Below the pieces are notes generated by a model. The model was not told where the DNA came from. It worked only from the letters and a program-made list of their open reading frames with translations, and did no database searches. Positions 2,505-63,325 of a DNA stretch of 64,000 bases are shown here, in pieces. Origin of the DNA: Eledone cirrhosa. Its lineage: Eukaryota. Both the position numbers and the translations under genes were made by a program. Position 1 is the stretch's first letter. Each line of letters opens with the position of its first letter. The stretch is from the NCBI GenBank assembly GCA_964016885.1, contig OZ024745.1:29512001-29576000 (forward strand). The letters are read 5' to 3'.

Positions 2505-5265
2505 ATCATCACCGTTTTACGTCCGTTCTTTCATGCTACCATGGGTTAGACGGGTTGTCCTGTTGTGGGCAGTGTCTGGTCGGCTGACCATGCCTTGCTC
2601 ACACAGGAACTGATTTGGCTTGATTTCTACAGCTGGATGCCCTTCCTAACACTAACCTCATTTACAGTGAGTGCTGGGTGCTTTTTCGTGGCGCCTACAC
2701 GTCCACTTTACAGTGTGGGCTGGGTGCTTTTTTGCCGTGGCACCTCCACGACCACCTTGCAGTGGGGGTCGTGGGGGCATATTGTCTATATGCTTCAGCT
2801 TGTACCCATGGGAGGTCGGGTACTCTGTATTACTGCGTGACGCCAGAGGTCACGGTCATGTGTCATCGCCTTTGAGAGGTGTAATTGGGTAAGGTCGGCT
2901 TTTATCACCTCATCCCAGGTCATCTTGAATCTCCCCACTCCGCGGTTTCCATCGACTTCTAGTTCTTTGCACCTTTTTATGCAGCTGTCATCCTTCATAC
3001 GCATCACATGTCCATACCAACGCAACCGCCTCTCCTGCACACAGCATTTGATTCCTCTTATGCTCAGTCTCTCTCTCAATTCATTTATGCTTTGTCGGTC
3101 GCGTATATTACTATTACACATCCATCGGAACATGCAGGCTTCGTTTCTCTCTAATCTACGTAAGTCTTCCATCTTCAGCGCCCAGGTCTCACTACCATGC
3201 AACATCGCTGTTCGGATACACGCATCATACAGTCTGCCTTTCATTTTGAGGGAGAAGCCTTTTGCAGCTAGCAGTGGTAGTAGTTCCCTAAACTTCTTCC
3301 ATCCCGTTCTTACCCTAGTTATTGTACTTTCTGAACACCCACCTCCGCTGCTAATTCGCTCACCTAGGTAGCAGAAGCTGTCTACTGTTTCTACGGAGCC
3401 CTCTCAGAGATTGGTGGTACTTGTTTCCTGTGGCTGTTTGCTGCTTGCTGTCCCAGCACAGCTGCTGCATGTGAAGCCTACATTCTTAATTAAGCTTCCT
3501 GAGATCCCGCTACATCTCTTGTGTACCCATTGTTTGCATTTGGGGCAGAGAATGGAGTTCCTACCTACACCTTTCCTACATACTGAGCAAGGCCATTTCC
3601 CTGAAGGGATCTGGGTTCTGTCTTCTCGTCTACTTACAAGGACCTTAGTCTTTGTTATGTTGACTTTGAGACCCTTTCTTTCTAGTCCCTGCTTCCAAGT
3701 TTGGAATTTCTTCTCTAGTTCTACCATAGATTCAGCTATGAGTGTGAGGTCATCAGCATACAGGAGTTCCCATGGGCATCCGGTCTTAAACTCCTCCATT
3801 ATTGCCTGCAGGACTATGATGAACAGGAGGGGGCTAAGAACAGAGCCCTGGTGGACCCCAACCTGTACACTAAATTCCTCGCTATACTCATTGCTAATCC
3901 CAACTTTGCTGACTGCTCCCCTATACATGGCTTGTACAGCTTTCACAAGCCATTCATCTACTCCTAGTTTTCTAAGAGCCCATCAGATTACAGCACGTGG
4001 AACTCTGTCAAAGGCTTTCTCAAGATCGATGAATGCCAGGTAGAGTGGCTTACTTTTAGCTAGGTACTTTTCCTGTAACTGCCTCACAAGGAAGAGGGTA
4101 TCAGTGGTGCCTCTTCCTGGTACAAACCCAAATTGCATCTCATCTAGTTTCACCCGGTCCCTAATCAACTGTGCTATAACTCTTTCTGTTACTTTCATGA
4201 CCTGGTCGATCAGCTTTATACATCTATAGTTTCCTCTATCGAGTGCATCACCTTTACCTTTGTAGCAGTTGACAATGATGCTACTGTACCAATCTTTTGG
4301 TATGACACCTTCTAGTATTACCTGGTTAACAATACGTGTGGTTATAGTGTGACCTACAGACCCAGATGCCTTCAGCATCTCGGCAGCTATACCCGATGGA
4401 CCGGTGCCTTCCCCATCTTCATATCTTTGATTGCCTTACTTACTACGCTGCTGCTGACTTGTACTGCTGGCCCCTCTATAGGGTCTGCTTGGGGTAGGGT
4501 CTCTTCTTCCCATGCATTCTCCTCATTTAGTAATCTATCATAATGACTCTTCCATGCATCTTTCTTCTCAGCACTTGTGAGGGCAAGCTCACCTTTATCA
4601 TTCCGGATACACTTCTCTCCAATGACATCACAATTCTCTCTGACACACTGCCTCGCAATCTTGAACACCTCCTGTTTCTGGTCCTCACGTTGCAAAACAT
4701 GCTTGAATTTTCTATCCTCTGCTTCCCTCCTAGCTAAGTATACTTGTTGCCTAGCTTCCCTCTTGGTCTCTATATAATGTACCGTGCTCCCCCCGTACTT
4801 CCATTCTTTCCATGCCTGTCTCTTGGCCTTAACTGCCTCATCTACCTTGTTGTTCCACCACCAAGTCACTCTTCTCCTGCTTGTGGTCTTACTCCAGCCA
4901 CAGACCTCATCCGTCACCTCTAGTAAGTTATTTTTTAGGAACTCCCAGTGCTCTTCGACATTGAATGTCTCTATCTGTTCTTCTTTACTGTCGTAGGTGT
5001 TGAGTAAAATATCTCTAAATCTGTTACTGGTTGAGGGGTCTTTCAGCTTCCAGATCTTTCTTCTCCAGGTTGGCCTCTGTTTTCAGGTTCGTCTAGTTCT
5101 GACTGTGAGGTCGCTGACAACTAAGCTATGTTGGGATGTACATTCCTCACTAGGGAAGGCTTTTGTGTTTACGACCGTCCATCTGTCACGTCCTCTGATG
5201 AGGATAAAATCTATCTGACTAGAATGCTCCCCTGATCTATAGGTGATCAGGTGGTTGTCGGGATT
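2505..5265 (-). mobile_element. RTE-clade LINE, 5'-truncated and frameshifted (end of APE domain, RT, PHD-type finger, 3' UTR, (GAT)n tail)
   Basis: ORF pieces with NYR.IKL, QFGFVPGRGTTD, FIDLEKAFDRV, GVHQGSVLSPLLF, LLYADDL, CSVC..CPKC..HKRC..CSSC and RRLRWYGHVMRM. Confidence 0.95.
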
Positions 5266-6772: not shown

Positions 6773-6791
6773 ATATATATATATATATATA

Positions 6792-7453
6792 TTGGGATTT
6801 GGCCGGAGTATCGCTATTAGCTTTCTCCGATAATGTATTTATATATTTACTCTTTGTTTATTTTTATATATGAATATTGATTGTTTCTTGTATCTCATTC
6901 TGTTATTTTGCCCGAGAAAATATCTGTGTCATCAAACGATGTACACATATGGATATTTTTTCAAATTCCAATTGAGTTCTAGCACGTGGCTTGAATTCCT
7001 TTTAGAATTCCTTGTCCTCGGCATGTATTGTTTTTTGGCGGTAATTCTCCTTCCTCTTTTTTGAGACAGTATGAGAATTTCTTTAGAACTGCTGGGCTAG
7101 CAATCTAGCAGCTACCTCAAGCACTGATGGTGATTATTGCTAAATATTGATGTTGATTTGATTTTCAATATTAATATTATTGGGTACCCACTGAAGAATT
7201 ATAAAAGCTTCTACATAAATTAGTATAATTTCACCCAACTTGTAGGAATCTTATAATGAAACGAGACGTCCGTCTGGGAAAAGATATATTTGATATATCT
7301 TATATGAAATGATGCAGCCAATTTTCCACACAATACAATTAGTTAGCACCCCGAACGTTTAATTAGAAATATACTCACTTATTTCCTAATGTTTGTTGAG
7401 TGAGTTGGGATTTGGCCGGAGTATCGCTATTAGCTTTCTCTGATAATGTATTT

Positions 7454-7455
<2 letters not shown>
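6792..7455 (+). mobile_element. Retrozyme-like or solo PLE pseudo-LTR unit: 613-bp monomer plus 51-bp terminal direct repeat, one HHR
   Basis: 6792-6842 repeated at 7405-7455 with one mismatch; flanked by (TA)n and (CAT)n. Confidence 0.7.
7187..7278 (+). ncRNA. Type I hammerhead ribozyme with long stem II
   Basis: ccca-CTGAAGA-attataa...ttataat-GAAA-cg(agacgtc)c-GTC/tggg; predicted cleavage after 7274. Confidence 0.8.
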
Positions 7456-7514
<59 letters not shown>

Positions 7515-7854: not shown

Positions 7855-8799
7855 GGAAAAAATCAGAAAAATCAAAGTATTTATATTAGTTGTAAGAAAG
7901 GAAGAAGAGAAGGGATAGTATATGACAGATGGCAATTCAATTTGCTGGTAAACAAGTATATAGAAGGTTTTTAATGAGAATACAATGAGTATATGGCTTA
8001 TTTTATCTAAATAAGAATTTTTGGGAGTGCCTATTTTAATCTATATTTGACCAGTTGAACAATGGACAGGGCTGGTCGTTTGGTGTAGTAGTATTAATAC
8101 AGATATAAAGTATCAAGTATATATCTGTATGATGATGATGGTGATGATGATGGTGGTGGTGGTGGTGGTGGTGGTGGTGGTGATGATGATGATGATGACA
8201 CATCAGACTTCTGCATAACCCTTGATTATGGGATATTTCCATTATGTAGCATTGTTCAACCCAGAGCCACAGTAGAAGGGTAAAAGACATTTGCGCAAGC
8301 ACAAGATACCATAGAACCCTAACCACATGTGCTCAATAAACCACTTAACCACAGAGCCATGCCTGTGCCATGTAGATTTGACAGCTGAGAGAAGAGATTA
8401 TCTCCAGAACTAAATCACAACATAAAGTTTCATCGATCGATCACAAATTGTGATCAATAACTAAAATATTTTATTGGCATCTTTAATGATACTAATTATT
8501 GGATATTTTTCTTTAAATTTTGCACAATAATTCTTCAAACGATGCTTTTTTTTATCCAATCAAATAAATCCTTAATACAGAACTGGAATAGAAAGAGTTA
8601 CACAAGACGATTTGTAATGTCCAAAATTAAGAGTTCATCTGTAATGGAGCAATACTAGCCTGCTACCGATTTGGGGTTCATAAAATACCAGTTAAGATAT
8701 GGTGGAGTCATGAAGTTTGAAACTTGGGTTTAGGAACTGTGTTGTTCAAACGAACTACCCCAGCATATATATATATATATATATATCATTTCATTTTTT

Positions 8800-9135
8800 T
8801 CATCATTTCATTTTACATCCGCTTTTCCCTGCTTGCAAGGGTGGGACGGGAATTGATTCTGGCTTGATTTCTACAGCTGGATGCCCTTCCTAACACCACC
8901 CTCATTTACAGTGAGTGCTGGGTGCCTTTTTTGCAATGGCACCTACATGACCACTTTGCAGTGGACTGATAAGGAACCCAGTCCCTATCATCTCATTTCT
9001 ACAGCTGAGTAAACTGGAGTAATGTGAAATAAAGTGTCTTGCTCAAGGAAACAACACATCACCCGGTCTGAGAATTGAACTCACAACCTTTCGATTGCAA
9101 GGCCAATGCTCTAACCACTAAGCCATGTGCCTCCA
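8800..9135 (-). mobile_element. tRNA-derived SINE with RTE-type 3' tail
   Basis: Head ggaggcacatggcttagtggttagag, tail ...gtaaaatgaaatgatg. Confidence 0.85.
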
Positions 9136-20337: not shown

Positions 20338-23300
20338 TCATCATCATCATCATCATTTTACGTCCGCTCTTCCCTGCTTGCAAGGGTGGGACGGGTCTTA
20401 TTCAGCACAGCATCTCTCCACTCGTCACGTCACTACCACGTCTTCCTTCAACTGGCATTTCCTGGCACTTCTTCACCCATCGGTCATCCTCCATGCGCAT
20501 CACATGTCCATACCACCCCAGTCTCCTCTCCAGTACACTACATTCTATCTCTCTCAACACATTCATGCTGGGTCGTTCATGCACATTGACACTGCACATC
20601 CAATGGAGCATGCTTGCCTCATTTCTCTCCAGCCGTCGCATATCCTCTGCAGTTGCTGCCCATGTCTCACTACCATGCAGCAATGTGCTCCTCACATAGG
20701 CATCATATAACCGGCCATTCGTACGCAGGGAGAAACCCTTCTTCGCCAGCAGAGGAAGCAGCTCCCTAAACTTCTTCCAACCCGTCCTTATTCTAGATAC
20801 TATGGCCTTGGACCCCCCCCCCCCCCCCCCCCCTCCCATGCTAATCTGATCTCCTAGGTACCGGAAGCTATCCACCACTTCTATAGCACCCGCCTGCATT
20901 TGAAAAATGTGTCTATCAATGCGACTTCTACTGTCTAATTTCCCTGTACATCTACTGCATACATATTTCTCCCATCCTGTTAGTTTGCCTGCTATCCCGC
21001 TACATCTCTTGTGTACCCAGGACCTGCATTGTGTGCATTTTATAGAATCTATGGCAGTTACTTTTCTGCATATCGAACATGGCCATTTCCCTGCCGGAAT
21101 CAGATTTTTGTCCTCTTTTCTACTCATCAACACTTTTGTCTTAGCTATGTTCACTCTCAGTCCTCTTGCTTCCAGCTGCTGTTTCCATAGCCAGAATTTA
21201 TTCTCTAGCTCCTCTACTGATTCTGCTATAAGAACCAGATCGTCAGCATAGAGAAGTTCCCATGGACAGTCAGTCTTAAACTCCCCTGTTATGGCTTGGA
21301 GGACTATAATGAACAAGAGCGGGCTGAGGACCGAACCTTGATGTACTCCTACTTGTATCTGGAATTCCTCACTAAACTCCATTCCTACCCTAACTTTACT
21401 GACAGTACCTCTGTACAAAGTTTGCACTGTTCTCACAAGCCATTCCTCAACACCTAGTTTCCTTAGGGACCACCAGATGACAGATCGGGGTACCCTATCA
21501 AAGGTCTTCTCTAGGTCAACAAAGGCTAAGTATAGAGGCTTATTTTTCTCTAAGAACCTCTCTTGCAATTGTCTCACCAAGAAGAGGGCATCTGTTGTAC
21601 TCTTCCCAGGCACAAAACCAAACTGCATCTCATCTATTTTGACCCTTTCTCTAATTAGTTGTGCTAATATCCTTTCTGCCACTTTCATAACCTGATCCAT
21701 CAGTTTTATACCCCTAAAATTGCTCCTCTCCAGAAAATTCCCTTTACCTTTGTAGCAATTTATGAGAATACTGCTGTACCAGTCTTTGGGTATGACACCA
21801 CCATATATAGCCTGATTGATGATGCGTGCAACCAGTTTAGTGCCTACGTCCCTGATGCCTTCAGCATCTCAGTAACTATTCCCGATGGTCCAGCAGCCTT
21901 ACCATTTGTCATTTCCTTAATCGCCTCTTGGACCCTATATTCGTCAATCTCAATAGCTGGTCCCTCTGTCGGATCTACCGAGGGTAATTTCTCTCTCTCC
22001 CATTCGTTCTCCACATTCATCAGTCTCTCATAATGACATTTGCAGGCCTCCTTTTTCTGATCATTCGTGACACTAAGTACACCGGCATCATTCCGGACAC
22101 ATTTATCTCCAACAACATCCTGATTTGCATTGACACACTGCCTTGCAATGTGGAACACCGCACGCCTCTGATCTTCCCGTCGCAGAACATTGGCAAACCT
22201 CCTACTCTCAGCCTCCCTGCGTGCTAAGTACACCTGACGTCTAGCTTCTCTCTTAGCGGCTGTATATTCTTCCCTACTCCCACCCTTTTTCCAAGCCTTC
22301 CATGCTAGTCTTTTGTCTCTAATGGCCTTATCTACTGTGCTGTTCCACCACCAGGTCACTCTCTGTCTGGTTGGAGCTCTGTTCCAGCCACAAGTTTCAT
22401 CAGTAGCCTGCAGTAAGTTGTCACGTAAGAAATTCCAGTTATTATCTATGTCATACGTCTCTAAATCGTCTTCTTTTTCGTCATACACATCTTGAAGGGC
22501 TTTCCTAAATTTGTATTTTAGTGAAAGGTCTTTTAGCTTCCAGACCTTTCTTCTCCACACTTTCCTGTATGTCTCATTCCATCTCTTGCTTACTGAGATA
22601 TCACTAACGACTAACCTATGTTGTGGGGGTACATTCTTCCCCAGGGTATGTCTTGGTATTAGACACTATCTGCCTGTCCCGCTGCCTAACTAGTAAAAAG
22701 TCAATCTGGCTTATGTGCTCGCCAGATTTGTAAGTTATTAGGTGATTGGCAGGTTTCTGGAAGTTTGTGTTGCAAATAGTCAGTGTACTTGCATCACAAA
22801 ATTCAAGAAGTCACACTCCTTCATTTCTTGAGCCGTAACCGTGCCCACCATAAACTCCAGTGTAACCATCCTGGAGCTGTCCAACATGACCATTGAAGTC
22901 CCCTGCTAGCATAACGATGTCTCCGTCCTCTGTAATTGCGGTTGTTTGTAAAAGTTGCTCGTAAAAGCAGTCTTTCTTATCTTTGCCTAGGCCTGTTTGG
23001 GGAGCATAAGCAGAGATGATTGTCAGTATTCTCCTGCCTACAACTAATCTAAGCTTAATTATTCGATTACTAACTCGAACTACCTCTATTGTCTTATTGA
23101 TCCATCTCTCAGCCAGGAAAATGCCTATTCCCCCTAACCCATCATCCTTACCTACCCAGAAAAGCTTATAGCTAAGATGTTTGCCTACGACTAGTCTCGC
23201 AGAGGCACCTCTCCATCTCACCTCTTGCACGCAGCGCACATCCACATGCCTTCTCTCCAGCATCTCCGCTATTTCAGCAGATCTACCTCTGAGAGCGCCA

Positions 23301-23340
23301 ACATTAAGTGTTGCAACTCTGAGATGCGACGTCTTCATAT
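20338..23340 (-). mobile_element. Near full-length RTE LINE ORF (APE, RT, PHD-type finger), disabled by a few frameshifts and stops
   Basis: APE motifs VATLNVG, CVQEVRW, ISAYAPQ, AGDFNGHVG; RT motifs FVDLEKTFDRV, QGSVLSP, YADD; (GAT)n tail. Confidence 0.95.
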
Positions 23341-23544
23341 TTTGTTGTTGTTCCTATCTATTTGTTGCTGTGCTGCTAAGCGTTTTGGCATTGATATATA
23401 TATATATGTGTGTGTGTGTGTCTGATGGTAGCTAAGATGCTTCCATAGGCGGTATGCCGGTTGAGCACTCTATGCTCTTACAGAGCAGAGTATGGTATAA
23501 TATAAAACGAAAAATCAGTGATGCATCTGAAATCAATTTATTGT

Positions 23545-35892: not shown

Positions 35893-35974
35893 TGGCAGTG
35901 GTGGGATTCGAACCCACGCCTCCAAAGAGACTGGTGCCTAAAACCAGCGCCTTAGACCACTCGGCCACACTACC
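35893..35974 (-). tRNA. tRNA-Leu(UAG)
   Basis: GGTAGTGTGGCCGAGTGGTCTAAGGCG-CTGGT TT TAG GC ACCAG-long variable arm-GTGGGTTCGAATCCCAC-CACTGCCA; T-run terminator follows. Confidence 0.93.
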
Positions 35975-37278: not shown

Positions 37279-37576
37279 TTATATATATGACCATGGTTTT
37301 GCACCTAGAAGGTTTCCCTCCTAGACAAAAGCCTGGGCAAGGTTTGTTAATAGAAGAGCAGCATACATATAAGTCTTCCCTCACCACACCACCAATGTTG
37401 TCCAAAGGAAAGGCAATGGCCGATACAGCTTGGCCCCAGTCACGTCGCAACTCACTTCTACAGCTGCTTAAACTGAAGCATCGTGATATAAAGTGACTTG
37501 CTCAAGGAAACAACGAGAATCAAACTCATGACTTCCCAATTGCAAGTCCAACGCTGTAACCACTAAGCCATGTGCC

Positions 37577-37633
<57 letters not shown>

Positions 37634-37686: not shown

Positions 37687-37768
37687 TGGCAGCGGTGGGA
37701 CTCGAACCCACGCCTCCGAAGAGACTGGTGCCTTAAACCAGCGCCTTAGACCGCTCGGCCACGCTACC
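37687..37768 (-). tRNA. tRNA-Leu(AAG)
   Basis: GGTAGCGTGGCCGAGCGGTCTAAGGCG-CTGGT TT AAG GC ACCAG-...GGTTCGAGTCCCACCGCTGCCA; long T-run terminator. Confidence 0.93.
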
Positions 37769-39715: not shown

Positions 39716-42010
39716 TTATTATTATTACTTTCATATCTCAGTTATTGTTGCTATTTAACAAGAAAATTTGCCCTAATGATCATCAAGCCGCTACCTGCAG
39801 CCTCAGATATTCAGGACATATCAGAGGGTCCTTGCTGTTCCCAGTAGGCATGCCTTCTGGAGTGTTCCAAAAAAGGGGCTAATGTTCTTCAACCAACCTT
39901 GGAATCTTTTTGAGATAGTACCTAGTGCTGCTATGATGATGGGGATGACCTTGATCTCATGACAGTCCCAAATCCTTTCAAGTTCCCACTTTAAATCCTG
40001 GTACCAATTAATTTTCTTCTCCTTTTCTTGTACTCTTGTGTCAAGGGGACAGGCTACATCTATAATCAAGCAAGATCTTTTTTCCTTGTCAAAAACTACC
40101 AGGTCAGGCCTATTATGTTCTAATTTCTTGTCTGTCTGTATCCTGAAATCCCACAACACCTTCACTCAATCGTTTTCAATCACTGACTCTGGTTTATGCT
40201 CATACCATTTCTCAGAATGTGGTAAATTATTTAGTTTGCATAAATGCCAGTGAATCACCTTCCCTATTATATCGTGTCTCCATCTTTTATGTTTACACTC
40301 GGATATGATGTGAGCCACAGTTTCCTCCCTCTCTCTCTCTACAGATCCTACAAAGTGGGCTAGTTTCCTCCTTGTCACTATGGCGTTTTGGTCCACTACA
40401 TTCCAAGGGCTTGCTCCAGTGCAGCCAATAGCATTCCTTCTGTGGCTTTCTTAAGGTCCTCTTTCTTTAACCAGCTAACAATTCCATGTCTGTGGATCTC
40501 TGAATTCTATTTTCTTTAAAAAGATGCTATGAATGACATTTTCATCCAGGTTATTCTTCCTCTTTGTTGTTACTTCTTTCTTGTTTCCCCCTTCACTACA
40601 GACTTAAGCATTGGCTCGTTACTCTCAGATACACATTTATGTAGACAGTTCTTCTCCATCTGAACACAGTCCTCCACACTGATTAGACTTCTTACACCTC
40701 TCCTTAAGTACATTCTAGGAACATCACCCATCTTATGAAACATACTGCAGGTGGTCATTAATTTCCTTGTCTTTCTATCCAGTTCTTTTTGTTTGTTTAC
40801 ATTCCATTTAAGAATTCCCGCACTGTACCTAATAATAGACACAGCTTGGGAATTTACTGCACTTATGGCATTTTTACTATTCAGATGTGATTTTAGTATG
40901 TTCCTTACTCTCCTTATGTATTTCATCACCTTTTATGTCTTTGATATTATCTACCTCCAGAATACCCAAATACCTATATTCCTCTTCAGTGTCAATCTCC
41001 TTTATCATCTCACCTATTTGTACCTTGATTCCTTTGCTTCTCTTCAATTTACCCCTCTTCATCACTAGGACTCCACACTTATTAACACTAAATTCCATGC
41101 ATATATAATTGCTGAAAATACAGACAGTGTTAACAAGTACACTCAACTTCTTAATGCTCTTCCCAAATAGATTTAGGTCGTCCATGAAGAGGAGGTGGTT
41201 GATGGTAAGCTCTCCTCTTCCCAGTGTGTATCCTCCTTGTAATCTACCCATCCCATGGCAAGACTAGTATGCCTCCTCTTGCAGTTCCTTATTATCATCT
41301 TGTCAATAAGTAACTAGTCTTTTGTACCATGGAACTTCATTTGGCAGCCTTTCTGTTCCTCCAGCAATAAGTTGTTTATGTCGAGGTAGTGGTAGATTTC
41401 CTCAGACACAATTGTTAGTCATTTCCACATCAAGGACAGTCATGTGATAGGTCTATAGTTGGTAACATCATTTCCTTTGGCTTCGTCTTTCAATATTAGG
41501 ACCATTGAACCTTTTGTCAACCACTGCGATACTTCACCCAACACCAAGCAGTCACTGAACATGGCCGTCTGTATCAGGTGGAGAGGTTATATTTTTAGTC
41601 CAATATCCTTGCATGCCATCCGGGCCTGATGATTTCCAGTTGGTTAATTTATTGGCCTGCTTTTTAAGGGTTTCGACCAACACACTTAAATCAGGTTGTT
41701 GGTGTACTTGTTCATTAACCTGCTTTTTAACACTCACAATCCACTCTGTCCAACTATTATACTCAACATCCTGTTCCTAAATCCCTCTCCAAAATGTGTT
41801 GCTTTGCAACCTCAGGAATAGCATCGTTACCTCTTTCTTTCCCTTCAATCTGTTCAAATAACATCTTCTGGTTGTCAAACATACGGATTTGCCTACACTG
41901 GCTAACTCTGATCACATAACTTTTAATTTTTGCATTTTTGGTTAGGACACGTTGTTTTAGTTCCTCTATTTTAACATTTAGCCCTTTTCCCTTTGTGTTG
42001 TATTTCCTTG
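39716..42010 (-). mobile_element. R4/Dong-like non-LTR retrotransposon relic (RT, zinc knuckle remnant, REL endonuclease), (TAA)n tail
   Basis: NWKSSGPDG, HLLFMDDL, YRYLGI, ETVAHIISEC..RHD, LWDFRIQTD..NRPDLV..IIDVACP. Confidence 0.88.
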
Positions 42011-42417
42011 TCAATCTATCCTTAGGACCTATGTTTTGTAATATCTGTTTTAATTTTTGGCAAATGGATGCAAATATCAAACGAAAAAAATTCAATATCG
42101 ATTGACACTTTGGTTCTATATATATTCATATAAATATATGCACTTAAATAAACATGTAAAAATATGTATAATACATATGTATGACTTGTTAGTGAGATTT
42201 TCTTTGTTTTTTAATTGGGAAAAAGTGTGTTGGGGGGGGGGGGGCGGACAACAACAAACGATGGTTTGTCCCCCGTTCCTGAAAAAGGCTCTTATATATA
42301 TATATATTTTTTTTTAGTATATGTTGGTTGTTTACCGACCCCTCAGTATGCAGATTGGAGCACTCAACCTAGTACACAGGTTGGTTTGTTTACTCCGGGG
42401 TAATGTAAAATAATTAA

Positions 42418-47340: not shown

Positions 47341-47401
<61 letters not shown>

Positions 47402-47441
47402 GATATTAAATAAATGGAAACTATATTTATAAAACCATATT

Positions 47442-47507
47442 TATTTCATTATATATATTTCAGGGATATCATATTAAAAATATGGTATGCCTTCTTCAGA
47501 CAAAATA
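47442..47507 (-). ncRNA. Type I hammerhead in the inverted arm
   Basis: Reverse complement of 50863-50928. Confidence 0.75.
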
Positions 47508-47760
47508 CAATATAAACAGTCTTATAAATAGATAGATTTGACATACCTTACAGCTTCAACTTCCATTTAAAAAGTTGATTTGGTAGTGAAAAATGTTAGG
47601 GACAGTTATAAAAAGAAAGAAAAAAGCGAAGAAAAAGAAGAAATGCATGCAACTAAATAGAGAGAGATAGATATAGAGAGATAGATAGAGAGAAGAAATT
47701 CATGTAAAGAAACAGAGAGAGATAGATAGAGAGAGAAAAAACACAGAGGGAGATAGATAG

Positions 47761-47792
<32 letters not shown>

Positions 47793-48494
47793 AAAATAGA
47801 GAGAGATAGATATAGATAGAGATAGAGAGAAAGAAAATAGGTAGTTGGGCACCAGTTGAATGACGTATCAATGATATATTTATTTATTTATTTATTTATT
47901 TAGTTCTAGTATTAAGGTAGAGAGATATATATGTGGTTAGGAGAGAAAACAGCCGTTACATAGAGAGAAAAGAAAAATATCCAGATATAAACGAGGCAGA
48001 TTTAAAACATTATGTTTCATCAATGTAAAAATATCAATTCGTATGAATTAGGTATTATAATGTAAATATCAGTATTCATGAATGAGACACGTATCAATAA
48101 TGTGTGAAAAATAATGATCATATGTCTAGTTTAAAATTCCTAGGTTTATATCAGAGTTGAGATAAAAAACTGAGATAAAAAAACTGAGATAAAAAAATGA
48201 GATAAAAAAACTGAGATAAAAAACTTCAAAAAAAATTGAAATACATAAGTATATATGCACTTTCATGAAAAAAGAAAAAAAGAAAAAGAAAAAGAAAATA
48301 GAAGGTTATCCCAGATTCGATACTATAGACTTCCATGTGAATTTACGTGATCAACTCAGCAAATTCCTATTTCACATGAAAACATTCTCATTGTGCTATA
48401 AAAATTCTAGTATACATATATGTGTACATACACACAAATATATATAGAATCTACATTAATTTTAACAATACTATTCTTGTCTTTATATTCTTGC

Positions 48495-49452
48495 CTATTT
48501 ATAATCAATTCGCTGTATAGGAAAATACCCGGTGCCACCGGAGGTTTATATAGAGATGACATGCTTTTACTTATTGAAAATAATAACTCTGAACTAAATA
48601 GAAAAAGAAAACAAATTACACAATTTTTTAATTACTTTAATCTAAAAATAGAAATTGAGAATAACCATAGAATAGTCAATTTCCTAGATGTAACATTAAA
48701 TCTCAACACATGTCTTCACTATCCATTTCACAAGTTGAATGAAAACTTAAACTATGTCAGTTTTAACTCTAACCACCCCAGATCTGTTAAAAATACTATA
48801 GTGAACTCTGTTCAAAAACGTATCTCTAGAATCTCATCTAATAAAAAGATTTTCGACGAAAAAGCCCAGTATTACAATGAAGCGTTAGCTAGAGCAGGAT
48901 ATAGTGATAAAATTATGTACAACAATTTTAATTACGGTAACAACTTTAACAACTATAATAGAAAGCATTACAATAATTCCAAAAGCCAAAAAAGAAATAG
49001 AACTAGGAATATAATATGGTTTGCCCCCCCCTTTCTCACTAAACATTAAAACCCACATCGCTAAACTATTTTTTAATGCTCTTGATAATCGCTTCCCTAG
49101 AACACATAGATATCACTCAATTTTCAATAGACATACTATAAAATTAACTTACTCATCCACCAAAAATTTAGCACAAAATATTAATAGAATAAATAATAGG
49201 AATTTAAAACCTAGCCAAAATACCGATAATAGCATAAATAATATCCAAGTAAACAAATGTAACTGTAGAGATAGATCTAAATGTCCGTTAAATAACAATT
49301 GCTTAGTTAAAAATATAATATACAACTGTAATGAGGAGATATTCTTTATACTAAAATCTAAAAATTCCCTTAATTTACGGACAAATTTATTCAGTTGCTG
49401 CAGACATAGATTGAACTCAACTTTTAAATATAAATATAAATTTAAAATGTAG
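48495..49452 (+). pseudogene. PLE RT C-terminal half, linker and internally deleted GIY-YIG endonuclease
   Basis: GLYRDD, VNFLDVTLNL, SNHP, RNIIWF.PPFS, CNCRDRSKCPL, terminal CCRH; one frameshift near 49030. Confidence 0.85.
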
Positions 49453-50579
49453 TATATTTACTTTGATTTATAATTATTTATGAAACTCGCCGATAAATCT
49501 TTCGATTTCTTTTTTTTAAACATTCTTCATGAATAATTAAACTACCCTAAAAGCTGATGCACCAAATATATCGAATAAATTTTACACTAGATAAACTTCT
49601 ATAATAAATATAAGACCATCTGTAGATCAAATGGGTATCCTAAACTTTTGGAATGATTTCTGCTAGACAGGATTTGGTAAATAATTTTGGTTTTGTTTGC
49701 TTTTGATTCTGATGCTTATAATGAACTTGGCAATATATTGTCAATTAATTTTGAAGGGTTGATCTCTGTGGTTGATTTGCGGGGCATACTGTGTTTTATT
49801 TTTAATATTTTATTTTTTATTTTTAATATTTTTTAATTTTTGATGTTTTTATTGATATATTGATGTCTGTTGTCTATTTATGCTTGAACGATAATCATGT
49901 AGAGTAAAGACAAGAATAGTATTGTTAAAATTAATGTAGATTATATATATATATGTATACTAGAATTTTTATAGCACAATGAGAATGTTTTCATGTGAAA
50001 TAGGAATTTGCTGAGTTGATCACGTAAATTCACATGGAAGTCTATAGTATCGAATCTGGGATAACCTTCTATTTTCTTTTTCTTTTTCTTTTTTTCTTTT
50101 TTCATGAAAGTGCATATATACTTATGTATTTCAATTTTTTTTGAAGTTTTTTATCTCAGTTTTTTTATCTAATTTTTTTATCTCAGTTTTTTTATCTCAG
50201 TTTTTTATCTCAACTCTGATATAAACCTAGGAATTTTAAACTAGACATATGATCATTATTTTTCACACATTATTGATACGTGTCTCATTCATGAATACTG
50301 ATATTTACATTATAATACCTAATTCATACGAATTGATATTTTTACATTGATGAAACATAATGTTTTAAATCTGCCTCGTTTATATCTGGATATTTTTCTT
50401 TTCTCTCTATGTAACGGCTGTTTTCTCTCCTAACCACATATATATCTCTCTACCTTCATACTAGAACTAAATAAATAAATAAATAAATAAATATATCATT
50501 GATACGTCATTCAACTGGTGCCCAACTACCTATTTTCTTTCTCTCTATCTCTATCTATATCTATCTCTCTCTATTTTTG

Positions 50580-50611
<32 letters not shown>

Positions 50612-50862
50612 ATCTATCTCCCTCTGTGTTTTTTCTCTCTCTATCTATCTCTCTCTGTTTCTTTACATGAATTTCTTCTCTCTATCTATCTCTCTATATC
50701 TATCTCTCTCTATTTAGTTGCATGCATTTCTTCTTTTTCTTCGCTTTTTTCTTTCTTTTTATAACTGTCCCTAACATTTTTCACTACCAAATCAACTTTT
50801 TAAATGGAAGTTGAAGCTGTAAGGTATGTCAAATCTATCTATTTATAAGACTGTTTATATTG

Positions 50863-50928
50863 TATTTTGTCTGAAGAAGGCATACCATATTTTTAATATG
50901 ATATCCCTGAAATATATATAATGAAATA
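50863..50928 (+). ncRNA. Type I hammerhead, sense to the PLE ORF
   Basis: tattttgt-CTGAAGA-agg...cct-GAAA-tatata-TA/atgaaata, overlapping AATAAA. Confidence 0.8.
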
Positions 50929-51054
50929 AATATGGTTTTATAAATATAGTTTCCATTTATTTAATATCGTAAATATACTCCAAATACTTGTTGAGTGCTT
51001 TTATATCAGTTATAAATATTTACTCGTTGTAACCCAACAATTTAAATAAAACTT

Positions 51055-51103
<49 letters not shown>

Positions 51104-53107: not shown

Positions 53108-53615
53108 TATATATATATAATATATAATATATATATGTATATATTATATACATATATATATATAATATATATATGTATATATACATATATATATATTATA
53201 TATATATAATTGAGTTCTTTACACGAGAAATTAATATTGGTTTTGAAATAACTAATTAACCCGCGTGTGTTTTATATTTTACTCTTAATAATTCGGCCGG
53301 AGAATTATATTCCCATTTGCCCTTTATAGCATAACTTTCTGCATTTACTGCGGTTATGAGAAGCGGTTCTTATTCGGGTACAACTTCTGATTTAGCCTAA
53401 GAAAATATCTATATGCGTGTGTAATGTATACAAACATATATTTATTTTTTTATTGAGTTCTTAAACACGTTGGATTGGTAATGTTTTCAAAAAAAACTAA
53501 TTAACCCGCGTGTATATTATTTTTTTTCCTCATTTCGTGAGTTGTCTCCCCTTCCCGCTTCGTGTCGCTATGATACTTCCTCAGTCAAAAACTGCTGGAA
53601 TTTCAAATTTGGCGG

Positions 53616-55824
53616 TCATTCGAGATATATTGAGATATATGATAGAATATTGGACGTACCTTGAATTTGTTTCTGTTTCCGTAATTCATCAATGCCTATT
53701 GCTTTAGCCCTTTCTATTCCATTATTTATTAGTAATAGTGGGTACTCTCTCTCGAGTAGAATTTCCTTTAATTCTTGAAGTCTTTTATTTCGCGTTTCAT
53801 AATTGGAGACAATTGTGCAAATTCTTCTTGCTAGGTTAAAAGGAATATTCGTCTTCGTGTGCTTTGGATGGTTGGAGGTGAATAGCAGATATTGTTTGGA
53901 ATCTGTTGGTTTGTAGTGTATGTCAGTTTCGATATTTGTGTCTTTTTTTATGATTAAGATGTCCAGAAATGGGAGTTGATCTTGACTGTATTCCATTGTG
54001 AATTGGATGTGGTTATTGATGCCGTTTATTAAGTTTTTGAAATCCTTCAGTTGGTCGAGTGTGTGGGACCAAAGAATGAGGCAATTATCCAAGTAGCGTT
54101 TCCAATTCTCTGATAAATATTTGTGGAAGTTCAATCCGTATTTTGATTTGGACTGTTCATATATCTGGACTTCTAAGTATGCCATGACTAAGTTGGCATA
54201 AGTTGGAGCGGCTTTTGTACCCATCGCAGTCCCCGATATTTGCTTGTAAGTATTGCCATCGAAATAAAAAAAGTTGTTCTGTAGGATGAATTTTAATCCC
54301 TCGGTGATGAAGCTTTTTTCTATTCTGTCAGGTATCTCATTGGGATATTTCTCTAGCCAGAATCCTATTGCTTCTAGTCCGTATTGGTGTGGGATCGTTG
54401 TGTAGAGATTCACTACATCGAAAGACACAATAATAGTGTCGTTGTTGACATGTTTGGGGAGGTGGTTTAAGAGGTCCAGATCGTCTCTTACAAGGCTTGG
54501 TATGTGTTTCAGTATTGGTTTCAGTAGTATGTCTATAAGGTTGCTCAATCTGTGTGTTTCACATTGTGGGCCCGCTACAATTGGTCTTAATTTAAGATCT
54601 GTGGGGTATTGTGTGTTCACGCAGGCTGAGGTGGATTGTTTACAGGCATCGTTGATTATTTTACATTTGTGGATCTTCGGAAGTCCGTAAAGGTTGCTGG
54701 TTTTGTATTCAAAATTTTTAAAATAATCGCGTTCCTTTTTAGTTAGGTCTTCCTGGTATCGATAAATCAGTGTGTTTAATTTGGTCATTATTTTTGATTG
54801 CTGGTAGTTTTTTTACTCTTTCATAGTAATAATTAGTATTTTGTAAGAGAGAGAACAGAATTTTTATATTTTTCAGCCTCCATAATGACAACAGTACTTC
54901 CCTTGTCCGCTTCCTTAATTACAATGTCCGTATTGTTTTTTAGTTCATGGATAATCTCCCATTCCCTTCGACTTGTGTTGGGTTTGGGTTTAGGTTGCGG
55001 TAGTTCATGGTATGAGAAGGTAGCTATGTGGTCACAAAATTTGTCCAGAACTCTGTTTCTACCTTTTGTTGGGTTGTAGCTGCTTTTATTCCGTACAATT
55101 GATTCGTCGTTATTCTCCTTGTCAAAGAATTCCTCTGTGAGACGTAATTTTCTACAGAAGTGTGAGATATCGTCATTTATCTCGTTGGGGTTAGGGTATT
55201 GTGGTGTTGGTGTGAATTTCAGACCTTTGGAGAGAATTTTTACTTGTTGGGCTGAGAGGTTTGTATTTGAAATGTTAATTATTTTCAGTTTTTCAAAATC
55301 GGTTTGTGCCACCGGGTGTCGTGAGTCCTGTAGCCTTGGTCTAAAAAATGATTTTTCTGGAATGTTTTTTCATTGGTATTATTATATCTAATGGTATTTC
55401 CTCTGTTGTTGTGTGGTCTTGTATAGAAGTTTCTGACGTATTGAGGTTCGGTTTGTTGATAGTCCGGGTTGTAGATTTGGTTCCTTTGTGTGGGTTGGGA
55501 TCTACGGTTTTGGAACAGGCTCTGTGTGGGCAGGGGTCTACGGTTTTGGAATATGTTTTGTGTGGGTTGTGATCTGCGGATCAGGTCCTGCCTTGTGTTC
55601 GGGGATCTTTGGTTTTTGTTAGTAGGGTTATAGTTTTGTCTACGGTTTCTGGGATTATCGTTATAGTTTTGCTGGGGGTATGTTGGACGTTTTGTTACTT
55701 TTTTTGTTATTTGTTGTGCATGTGGTGTGTGAGTTTTAGTTTGTTTTAAAAATGGGTTACCTGTATGTTGTTCATTTTTGAAGTCCATTTCGTAGTTGTT
55801 GAACCAGGTGGCGTTTTTTCCCAT
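53616..55824 (-). mobile_element. Penelope-like element RT ORF, frameshifted and truncated before GIY-YIG
   Basis: LSKGLKFTPTP, IKEADKGSTVVIM, LYGLPKIHK, LRPIV, SFDVVNLYTTIP, GTAMGTKAAP.YANL, RYLDN (YxDD mutated), LPFLDI, SNHP. Confidence 0.92.
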
Positions 55825-55863
55825 CGCTGGAGGGATGTTAGTTCTTCATCCTCACAGTTTTAA

Positions 55864-55980
<117 letters not shown>

Positions 55981-60964: not shown

Positions 60965-63325
60965 ATTATCATCATCATCATCATCATCGTTTAACGTCCA
61001 TCTTCCACGCTTGCATAGGTTTGGACGGGAGTTTTCCCACTTGAGGCAAGAGTGGTTGTCTTGCTCGTATAGGACTGTCTGGCGGGTTTTCTACGGCTGG
61101 ATGCCCTTCCTAACACCAACCACATTTACAGTGTGGGGCTGGGAGGTTTTTACCGTGTTGCCTACACGGCCACATTACAGCGTGGACTGTGTTTTTTTTG
61201 TCGTGACACCTACACGATCTCATTTGTTTCGGCCTGGATGTTGTGGTACCAACATAACTTCACATTTAAGGGGCTGGTGTGGATGGGGTGGGGGTAGTGG
61301 GACAGGGGTGTATTTTTGTTAGAGGTACCTGCTGACTGTAGGTTTCGCTTTGTACTTAGGTAAGGCGGGTCTTCTCTATTACTGCGTAGTGCCAAAGATC
61401 TCGGTCCAGTGACATTATCTTGGAGAGGTGTAAGTGTGTGAGGTCGGAATTTATCAAGTCGTCCCAGGTTTTTCTGGGTCTGCCTATTCCGTGGCTACCG
61501 TCTATCTTTATCGCCCTGCACTTTTTTATACAGCTGCCGTCTTTCATGCGCATCACGTGACCATACCAACGTAGTCTTCTCTCGAGTAAACAACATCTGA
61601 TCCTTCTTATTCCTAATTTCTCCCTTGGTTCGTTTATGCTTTGCCGTTCACGTATATTACTATTACACATCCAGCGGAGCATGCAAGCTTCGTTCCTCTC
61701 TAGTCTGCGTATATCCTCTGCACACAATGCCCAAGTCACACTGCCATGTAACATTGCTGTTCGTATGCAGGCATCGTACAGCCTGCCTTTCATTTTTAGA
61801 GAGAAACCTTTAGCGGCCAATAGTGGTATAAGCTCACTGAACTTTTTCCATCCCATTCTGACTCTAGCTACTGTACTTTCAGAGCACCCTCCCCCACTGC
61901 TGATTTTGTCACCCAGGTAACGGAAGGTGTTCACTATTTCTATAGAACCATCTGTGCAATGGAATGAGCTAGTATTCTGTGGGCACTTGCTGCTACTTAT
62001 TGCACCAGAGCACCGGCCGCATATAAAATCTATATTCTTAGTTACCTTACCTTTGATCCCACTACATCTTTTATGCACCCATACTTTGCATTTGGGACAT
62101 AAAATGGAGTTTCTGCCTACTCCTTTCCTACACACTGAGCATGGCCATTTCCAAGATGGGACCGGTGCCCTATTTTCCTTCCTACAAACTAGAACTTTAG
62201 TCTTAGACAAGTTAACTTTAAGGCCTTTTGATTCTAGGCCATGCTTCCATGTTTAGAATTTCTTCTCTAGTTCAGCCATTGATTCAGCTATGAGCGTTAG
62301 ATCATCTGCATATAGGAGTTCCCATGGGCAGCCAGTCTTGAACTCCTCTGTTATAGCCTGAAGGGCAATAATAAATAGTAGGGGGCTAAGAACAGAGCCC
62401 TGATGAACACCAACTTTTATGCTAAACTCTTCACTATATTCGTTGTTAATTCTAACCTTGCTGACTGTTTCTTTATACATGGCTTGTATAGCTCTCACAA
62501 GCCATTCATCAACACCTAGTTTTCTAAGAGCCCACCAAATAATGGAGCGGGGGACTCTGTCAAAGGCTTTCTCCAAGTCAACAAAAGCTAAGTATAGGGG
62601 TTTACTTTTAGCTAGGTACTTCTCCTGTAGTTGTCGTACAATGAAGAGAGCATCTGTGGTACTTTTACCTGACACAAACCCGAACTGCATTTCATCTAGA
62701 TCAATTCGCTCACTGATTAGTTAGTTGCACTATTACTTTTTCTGTGACCTTCATGACCTGGTCGATTAATTTAATGCCTCTATAGTTACCCCTATCTAGG
62801 GCATCTCCTTTACCCTTGAAGTAGTTAATGATGATGCTGCTACGCCAGTCCTTCGAAACGACCCCAGGTTAGCTTTCAGGAATTCCCACTGTTCCTCTAT
62901 ATTGTACGATTCTAATTGCTCTTCCTTACTGTCAAAAGCATCAAGTAATATGCTTTGAAATTTATTACTGGCAGGGGGGTCCTTTAGCTTCCATATTTTT
63001 CTCCTGAGGATAGTCCTCCTCTGTTGTCGAGTACGTTTTGTCCTGACTACGAGGTCGCTGACTATGAGTCTATGTTGGGAGGTGTATTCTTCATGAGGGA
63101 GGGATTTAGTGTTTACGACAGACACTCTATCACGTCTTCTGGTAAGGATATAATCTATCTGACTGGCGTGTTCCCCTGATCAAGTGATTGTTTCGTTTTT
63201 TGAAGTTAGTGTTACAGACAGTTAGGTTATTTGCGTCACAGAATTCCAGGATTCTGGAGCCTTCCTCATTTCTAGTACCAAACCCATAGCCTCCATGGTT
63301 TCTGTCATAGCTTCCATCATGATTC
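60965..63325 (-). mobile_element. RTE LINE, internally deleted and 5'-truncated
   Basis: APE end (GFGTRNEEG..LEFCD), RT (QFGF, YADD), PHD finger, 3' UTR. Confidence 0.93.

What the first reader, a model, noticed from the sequence alone, without database searches (positions are those of the whole stretch)
6792..7455. 613-nt monomer plus 51-bp terminal direct repeat with one intact hammerhead: footprint of a circular RNA template?
The unit ends by re-copying its first 51 nt. The HHR is internal (7187-7278), so the insert looks like a permutation of a cleavage-to-cleavage monomer. That is expected when an RT travels slightly more than once round a circular RNA, or for a solo PLE pseudo-LTR with tail. 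A long TSD is less likely at 51 bp. The unit is longer than the roughly 170-400-nt metazoan retrozyme monomers I recall.
Basis: partly seen in the sequence, partly recalled or inferred. Interest (0 to 1): 0.8.

Follow-up and report, generated by a model that had tools for sequence, protein, structure and literature searches.

The report
Hammerhead retrozyme recording its own cleavage
This stretch is one of more than a thousand scattered copies of a protein-free ~700-base mobile element that carries a self-cutting (hammerhead) RNA motif and is likely pasted into TA repeats by Penelope-like retrotransposon enzymes; many copies begin exactly at the predicted cutting site, which likely records the ribozyme cutting in living cells.

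Summary
Observation confirmed: a 51-nt direct repeat (period 613) around an intact type I hammerhead (cut site 7274|7275). It is not a TSD and not a one-off. It is one 5'-truncated, 1.08-unit copy of a dispersed, ORF-less family (monomer 693-707 nt; at least 1,469 motif copies). The 613 length comes from two private deletions. Copies share one fixed 3' end in (TA)n (213 of 228 pieces), have variable 5' ends, run head-to-tail past one monomer, and sometimes carry inverted 5' pieces. This is the Penelope-like (PLE) pattern, i.e. a non-LTR retrozyme or non-autonomous PLE, a known kind. Start points are not freely permuted.

New: 5' junctions pile up at the cut site. 25 copies join (TA)n exactly there, against 1 and 2 at control offsets. 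Stops within 13 nt occur in 26 of 137 first passes and 9 of 29 second passes. So cleaved, open-ended RNA likely served as template in vivo. A closed circle is not required, and is disfavoured for three copies in this copy's lineage, but it is not excluded. No RNA run was on record and no homologous autonomous partner was found.

The parts
6792..7455 (+). Whole insertion: a 5'-truncated, 1.08-unit copy of a ~700-nt ORF-less hammerhead retroelement (subfamily A, lineage A1)
   Evidence: 14 substitutions in 612 positions against the commonest letters of its 15 nearest copies
6792..6842 (+). Upstream copy of the 51-mer = partial second unit (pseudo-LTR); its start is this copy's variable 5' truncation point
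   Evidence: other copies start anywhere along the monomer
7405..7455 (+). Downstream copy of the 51-mer, ending at the family's fixed 3' end (inferred RT start), which runs into the TA-type target
   Evidence: 213 of 228 pieces end at monomer position 43-63, and 203 of those 213 have a TA run there
7187..7278 (+). Type I hammerhead ribozyme with a long stem II insert and a palindromic stem III loop; predicted cut 7274|7275
   Evidence: covariation; 25 genomic junctions exactly at the equivalent site
6854..6855 (+). Junction of a private 44-nt deletion (monomer 64-107), flanked by ~5-nt microhomology
7204..7205 (+). Junction of a private 35-nt deletion (monomer 459-493) in the stem II insert; leaves 7 bp of stem II and the core intact
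6804..6829 (+). Predicted hairpin just upstream of the fixed end; its outer stem differs on both sides in family C (inferred RT-start signal)
   Evidence: folds; family C sequence; not counted formally
6773..6791 (.). (TA)n target on the 5' side, at the end of a SINE-like host repeat
   Evidence: families D6/D7 show the same host repeat at 8779-9117
7454..7514 (.). (CAT)n run on the 3' side. A (TA)n followed by CAT-like repeats also occurs without the element at 8766-8800, so the insert likely split a TA/CAT tract; no TSD is discernible

Best explanation
The insert is a 5'-truncated copy of a protein-free hammerhead element (a non-LTR retrozyme, i.e. a non-autonomous Penelope-like element) that is likely copied into (TA)n by a PLE reverse transcriptase/GIY-YIG protein in trans, from a fixed internal start, on more-than-unit RNA that is likely linear and only partly self-cleaved. 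Shown: fixed 3' end, TA target, variable 5' ends, head-to-tail extension past one unit, inverted 5' pieces, no ORF, a conserved hammerhead, and 5' junctions exactly at the cut site. Inferred: the RT starts about 180 nt downstream of a hammerhead and meets its site. In roughly 1 of 5 first passes and 1 of 3 second passes the RNA ends there (cleaved 5' end) and the cDNA is joined to the target at +1 or at the TA-like bases at +10. Otherwise it reads on through an uncleaved site or jumps the nick to the adjoining 3' end, which stem I would hold in place. The window copy passed one hammerhead and stopped 51 nt into the next unit. Long arrays then grow by DNA-level duplication and supply new multi-hammerhead masters.
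For: Copy number: 828 exact hammerhead-core matches and 1,469 end-motif matches, both with 0 in the reversed control. Fixed end: 213 of 228 pieces; 20 further hits among the 248 were self-matches of an internal hairpin and were set aside. Of 81 inserts picked only by the end motif, 56 pass the cut site, 17 exceed one monomer and 6 pass two sites. (TA)n joined exactly at +1: 25 genome-wide, against 1 at offset -5 and 2 at a downstream control. All 20 of the 25 fetched are true copies, 19 first-pass and 1 second-pass; two more were already held (L269, L274). Stops at +1..+13: 26 of 137 (3.9 expected) and 9 of 29 (0.8 expected), with no drop on the second pass. TA-junctions make up 8 of the first 100 listed matches at +10, against 0 of 100 at a longer internal TA-like run. 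Internal deletions in L251, L255 and L308 end at +1, and L355 re-copies the first bases after +1. Site A600: upstream A and terminal G in 3 of 3 two-unit copies of this lineage that have terminal G, against G,G in 11 of 11 in a sister lineage. Arrays of 2.4-4.7 units share private variants among subsets of units. Inverted partner pieces occur at 6 distinct sites. Young PLE families in the genome show the same end geometry. Internal RT initiation and AT-rich nicking were shown for a PLE in vitro (PMC11167929).
Against: Adjacent units agree at diagnostic sites in 316 of 322 cases in B (0.60 expected at random) and 97 of 108 in A, which a monomer circle predicts directly. Linkage across the cut site is as tight as on one side of it (47 of 51 vs 45 of 51), so jumps between different RNAs are rare. 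Recurrent unit-specific differences in B were few (10 of 329 differences recurred). The A600 argument rests on three copies, and G>A is a common change (0.019 per site). Most of the pile-up sits at +10, a TA-like microhomology. Sequence just downstream of the fixed end is conserved in A, B and C; if the RT needs it, a purely linear cycle would lose a unit each generation. No PLE with sequence similarity to the element was found, so the partner is unnamed.
Confidence: 0.55

Rival explanations
1. Same element and same PLE machinery, but the main template is a covalently closed monomer circle (cleavage-to-cleavage, ligated). The RT starts at the fixed internal site and rolls 0.05-1.9 times. The +1 junctions come from a minority of unligated or re-cleaved RNA, or from pausing at the ligated junction.
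For: Units within an insert are concordant (316 of 322) and less diverged (3.2%) than units of different inserts (4.8%). Several sub-lineages are each internally uniform. The length distribution runs past one monomer with no other fixed 5' limit. The monomer is strongly structured (z -6.5; window copy z -3.5; 20 shuffles each). Circles are documented for coral, mussel and axolotl retrozymes (PMC7229834) and were proposed for PLEs (PMC4209133).
Against: Stops at the cut site do not fall on the second pass (9 of 29 vs 26 of 137). Three copies carry different letters at A600 in the order a circle cannot give. No insert needs more than two passes of the site, because the longer arrays show DNA-level duplication, which also homogenises units.
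Confidence: 0.3
2. The unit is the pseudo-LTR region of an autonomous PLE not yet found; the copies are its 5'-truncated ends and solo pLTRs.
For: The end geometry matches PLEs in this genome. Intron-like signals are conserved in A, B and C, as in PLE 5' regions. Own-genome searches score only the best candidates, so rare long copies could be missed.
Against: Copies longer than one unit continue into the monomer itself, never into an ORF. tblastn with a PLE ORF finds only neighbouring, non-colinear PLE pieces. Shared 5' flanks join at different monomer positions and are other repeats.
Confidence: 0.1
3. The 51-mer is a long target-site duplication or a local DNA duplication of host sequence.
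For: Direct flank matches of 16 nt or more occur at 5 of 212 inserts.
Against: The 51-mer is the family's own end; part of it matches exactly 1,469 times, and it continues into the monomer in tandem copies.
Confidence: 0.01

Closest known systems
Metazoan non-LTR retrozymes (PMC7229834; bioRxiv 10.64898/2026.07.22.740005)
   Same: ORF-less, AT-rich, type I hammerhead, head-to-tail units, strongly folded monomer, co-occurs with PLEs; length within the reported 51-972 bp.
   Different: Mostly dispersed sub-monomer to 1.9-unit inserts with one fixed 3' end in (TA)n rather than satellite arrays. Hammerhead has a 4-bp stem I and a ~95-nt stem II domain instead of the canonical loop-loop form. Circular RNA is not shown here. 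Junctions at the cut site were not described in the text I read.
Penelope-like elements and their pLTR/tail structure (PMC8557442; Poseidon PAc, PMC11167929; PLE hammerheads, PMC4209133)
   Same: Fixed internal RT start, 5' truncation, partial tandems, inverted 5' pieces, (TA)n targets, hammerhead with a palindromic helix III suited to dimer folding.
   Different: No RT/GIY-YIG ORF. No two-ended 30-40-nt tail was seen: one end class only. For PAc, hammerhead cleavage was dispensable in vitro and no RNA-seq reads ended at the site, whereas here genomic junctions mark it.
Non-autonomous Chlamys PLEs such as MRC1 (PMC8557442, passage)
   Same: Non-autonomous, pLTR-forming, multicopy head-to-tail insertions.
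   Different: Those resemble their autonomous family at the 3' end and belong to a clade lacking canonical hammerheads. Here there is a hammerhead and no detectable similarity to the PLEs tested.
Plant LTR retrozymes (as described in PMC7229834 and the 2026 preprint)
   Same: Similar ~700-nt unit; ribozyme-processed non-autonomous retroelement.
   Different: They have type III hammerheads in LTRs, PBS/PPT and 4-bp TSDs. Here the hammerhead is type I, there is one per unit, and the target is (TA)n.

Membership tests
Non-LTR retrozyme | Type I hammerhead in each unit | tested here: met
   (158 cores tabulated)
Non-LTR retrozyme | Head-to-tail tandem copies with two or more hammerheads | tested here: met
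   (up to 4.7 units, L181); the window copy itself has only one
Non-LTR retrozyme | No protein coding capacity | tested here: met
   No stop-to-stop frame of 100 aa or more lies inside 6792-7455; one 115-aa frame ends at 6873 and lies mostly in the flank. No PLE ORF colinear with copies
Non-LTR retrozyme | Self-cleavage activity | tested here: inconclusive
   No assay possible; strong indirect support from 25 junctions at +1 vs 1 and 2 at controls
Non-LTR retrozyme | Accumulates as monomeric circular RNA | not testable with these tools
   No RNA holder listed; only contigs of runs of unrecorded kind were available
Non-autonomous PLE | Fixed 3' end, variable 5' truncation, partial tandem (pLTR) | tested here: met
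Non-autonomous PLE | Inverted 5' pieces and microsatellite targeting | tested here: met
   Inverted partners at 6 distinct sites; TA run at the 3' end in 203 of 213 and at the 5' end in 150 of 213
Non-autonomous PLE | Sequence similarity to the end of an autonomous PLE in the same genome | tested here: inconclusive
   None to the three PLE ends tested (best: 8 of 200 shuffles reached the score) or to loci; most PLE families were not sampled
Non-autonomous PLE | Optional 30-40-nt tail giving two 3' end classes | tested here: not met
   Single end class at monomer position 43-63; the feature is optional in the cited description
Autonomous PLE | RT + GIY-YIG ORF between pLTRs | tested here: not met
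LTR retrozyme | Type III hammerhead in two LTRs, 4-bp TSD | tested here: not met
   Type I, absent from the terminal repeat; no TSD at this locus

The most novel reading that the evidence does not exclude
This family is a genome-scale fossil record of hammerhead cleavage during Penelope-type retrotransposition. A PLE RT copies self-cleaved RNA and, at the cut, either falls off or jumps the nick (a 'nicked circle' held by stem I) with a measurable 20-30% stop rate per pass. More-than-unit PLE and retrozyme insertions would then arise without a covalently closed circle, and the circle-versus-linear question could be read from junction statistics in any assembled genome.
Probability: 0.35. Interest if true: 0.72.

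Novelty: new member of a known kind. Interest (0 to 1): 0.52.

Why it matters
The role of the hammerhead in PLE and retrozyme mobility is open. Circles were proposed as templates (PMC4209133, PMC7229834). The one reconstituted PLE did not need cleavage and showed no RNA ends at the site (PMC11167929). A 2026 preprint found cleavage in only 1 of 9 frog retrozyme dimers. Here, at least 25 insertions begin exactly at the scissile bond and stops recur on the second pass, which is likely in vivo evidence that cleaved RNA is used as template. It also ties a retrozyme to PLE-type target-primed insertion by its junctions rather than by co-occurrence. The family gives a young, high-copy substrate, and the same junction count can be run on other genomes. 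The element class itself is known.

Tried and rejected
Expression: no RNA holder listed. Contigs of X1 and X4 (kind not on record, one study) cover most of the monomer but cannot show strand, ends or circles; not used as evidence.

Partner search: the young RT/GIY-YIG family found from the window fragment, a Hydra-like family (one search was aimed at the wrong coordinates and retrieved it by accident), four neighbouring PLE stretches (L193-L196) and the PLE at 47401-51060 show no significant similarity to the monomer.

Multi-pass RT as the source of 3-5-unit arrays: rejected, since private variants are shared among subsets of units. A-to-I editing as the source of A600G: no sense-strand A>G excess (ratios 1.21 and 1.07). 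Frequent jumps between lineages at the cut: not supported. Spliced copies: none among 254 pieces. Rfam: no hammerhead hit. Single-sequence folding of the hammerhead alone was not significant (z 0.48 and -0.55). A formal count of the terminal hairpin failed because the pattern matched nothing. Earlier scan notes: nothing found.

Full report
Observation. The 51-nt repeat is at 6792-6842 and 7405-7455, 98% identical, period 613. The hammerhead reads directly: stem I CCCA/TGGG, CTGAAGA, a 7-bp stem II, GAAA, a 3-pair stem III whose loop holds the palindrome GACGTC, and GTC with the cut at 7274|7275. Rfam misses it, and folding it alone is not significant. Across 31 copies from three subfamilies the fold holds in 97.5% of 485 cells, with both-side changes at one stem I pair and two stem II pairs. 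The stem III loop can pair with a second copy, the dimer arrangement described for PLE hammerheads (PMC4209133, passages). The insert sits between (TA)n and (CAT)n.

Family. The window lies at G000:C5:29512001-29576000 in a 3.0-Gb assembly. I take the host for an octopod cephalopod from recalled repeat types; no call names it. The stretch drew 2,943 candidates, 40 scored. A 25-nt hammerhead motif matches exactly 828 times and a 20-nt end motif 1,469 times, both with 0 in the reversed control. The monomer is 693 nt (A) or 707 nt (B), about 87% alike. A third family C is 71-78% alike, with the same end and layout. The window copy is subfamily A, 2.8-4% from its nearest copies, and lacks 44 and 35 nt that no other of 254 pieces lacks. 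So 613 nt is private to it.

Ends. Of 248 aligned pieces away from locus edges, 20 were self-matches of an internal hairpin. Of the other 228, 213 end at monomer position 43-63, and 203 of these run into (TA)n. The 5' ends vary. Among 81 inserts chosen only by an exact terminal motif on C1 (96 of the 100 listed places were held), lengths run from 33 to 1,155 nt; 56 pass the cut site, 17 exceed a monomer and 6 pass two sites. Longer copies always continue into the monomer itself. Inverted partner pieces occur at 6 distinct sites, and inverted or direct flank matches at 5 of 212 each. This is the PLE pattern of 5' truncation, partial tandems, inverted pieces and microsatellite targets (PMC8557442, passages), and it fits the internal RT start shown for an anole PLE (PMC11167929, parts 1-3 of 4). 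The 51-mer is therefore a pseudo-LTR produced by where this cDNA stopped.

The cut site is recorded in the junctions. (TA)n joins the first base after the predicted cut 25 times genome-wide, against 1 at offset -5 and 2 at a downstream site with the same one-base overlap. Most stops are at +10, a TA-like stretch. However, TA junctions make up 8 of the first 100 matches there and 0 of 100 at a longer TA-like run inside stem II, although three imperfect junctions at that run appear. Three internal deletions end at +1 and one copy repeats the first bases after +1, as expected when an RT reaches an RNA end and jumps. I infer that cleaved RNA was template in about a fifth to a third of passes.

Circle or linear. 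For a single monomer template: adjacent units agree at 316 of 322 diagnostic positions in B (0.60 expected) and 97 of 108 in A; within-insert divergence is 3.2% against 4.8% between inserts in B; linkage across the cut is undiminished; the monomer folds strongly. Against a closed circle as the whole story: stops do not thin out on the second pass. Arrays of 2.4-4.7 units show DNA-level duplication, so no insert needs more than two passes and homogeneity has another source. At A600, the three two-unit copies of this lineage with terminal G all have A upstream, while 11 of 11 in a sister lineage are G,G. That order cannot come from one circle, and editing is not indicated, but it rests on three copies. 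DNA cannot separate read-through of an uncleaved site, a precise jump across a nick, and a religated circle. I put partly cleaved linear or nicked templates at 0.55 and closed circles as main template at 0.3. The window locus itself, with one hammerhead, cannot release a monomer.

Partner. The genome holds young PLEs with the same geometry. One RT/GIY-YIG family (775-aa frame, 97-98% identical hits, 34,333 candidates) has a U3-A8 hammerhead variant about 90 nt before a fixed end in (TA)n. A Hydra-like family has a long-stem-II hammerhead with the same stem III palindrome as family C. Clade names are my reading of motifs from memory. None resembles the monomer in sequence, so mobilisation in trans is inferred from junction anatomy only.

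Known and new. Non-LTR retrozymes and their proposed PLE dependence are published (PMC7229834, passages and Discussion; bioRxiv 10.64898/2026.07.22.740005, parts 1-3 of 5, consensus lengths 51-972 bp, no mollusc named among its sampled groups). An Octopus vulgaris repeat annotation lists active Penelope families but never mentions ribozymes (PMC13282606, passages). Eight searches showed no cephalopod retrozyme and no report of genomic junctions at a PLE or retrozyme hammerhead cut site. The library lacks most subscription papers, and I opened no supplements, so family lists there could already hold this element. Verdict: a new member of a known kind, with one result a specialist would value, the single-nucleotide footprint of ribozyme cleavage in insertion junctions.

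Noticed in passing
window 53616-55870 (-): Fragment of a young, high-copy Penelope-like element (RT; full copies such as L121:2523-7438 have RT + GIY-YIG, an inverted 5' copy, a U3-A8 minimal hammerhead and a fixed end in (TA)n).
   Followed up: partly
window 47401-51060: Hydra-like PLE piece (RT motif GLYRDD) between ~1-kb inverted repeats, with a hammerhead-like core near 50874 and an end in (TA)n; weak, non-significant likeness to the retrozyme's 3' region.
   Followed up: partly
window 53210-53600 (+): Distant relative of the retrozyme (72% over 89 nt to subfamily B, E 9e-4) joined tail-to-tail to the PLE fragment; a possible lead to the autonomous ancestor.
   Followed up: no
L002:1590-1825 (monomer ~93 and ~322); window ~7070: Intron-like signals conserved in A, B and C: AAG|GT(A/T)(T/A)GA and a pyrimidine tract ending in CAG. 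No spliced copy among 254 pieces. The window copy's first deletion removes the donor-like site.
   Followed up: partly
L311-L340: Family C, 90-96% identical copies, ~730-nt unit, same fixed end, stem III palindromes CGATCG/CGGCCG; part of an A lineage has CGAGTCG. The loop changes but stays self-complementary.
   Followed up: partly
L181:1934-5289; L130:2678-5179: 4.7- and 3.5-unit arrays whose units fall into sub-groups by private variants: satellite birth by unequal crossover from a retrozyme insert.
   Followed up: partly
L002:350-560; L121:8750-9270; L129:2100-2720; L195:2570: Several other unrelated short repeats with type I hammerhead cores, often in inverted pairs around (TA)n; the genome appears rich in such families.
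   Followed up: no
run X4 laid on L002:2114-2193: A 434-nt contig of depth 384 shares only the conserved 80-nt 3' domain and is unlike the rest: possibly another family using the same end signal (run kind not on record).
   Followed up: no
window 2800-5080, 20400-23350, 40570-42100, 61350-62720 (-): LINE fragments with RT, PHD finger and endonuclease domains.
   Followed up: no
window 35893-35974, 37687-37768, 37505-37577 (-): Two tRNA-Leu-like genes (anticodons TAG and AAG as read from the alignments) and a weak tRNA-like match, perhaps a SINE head.
   Followed up: no
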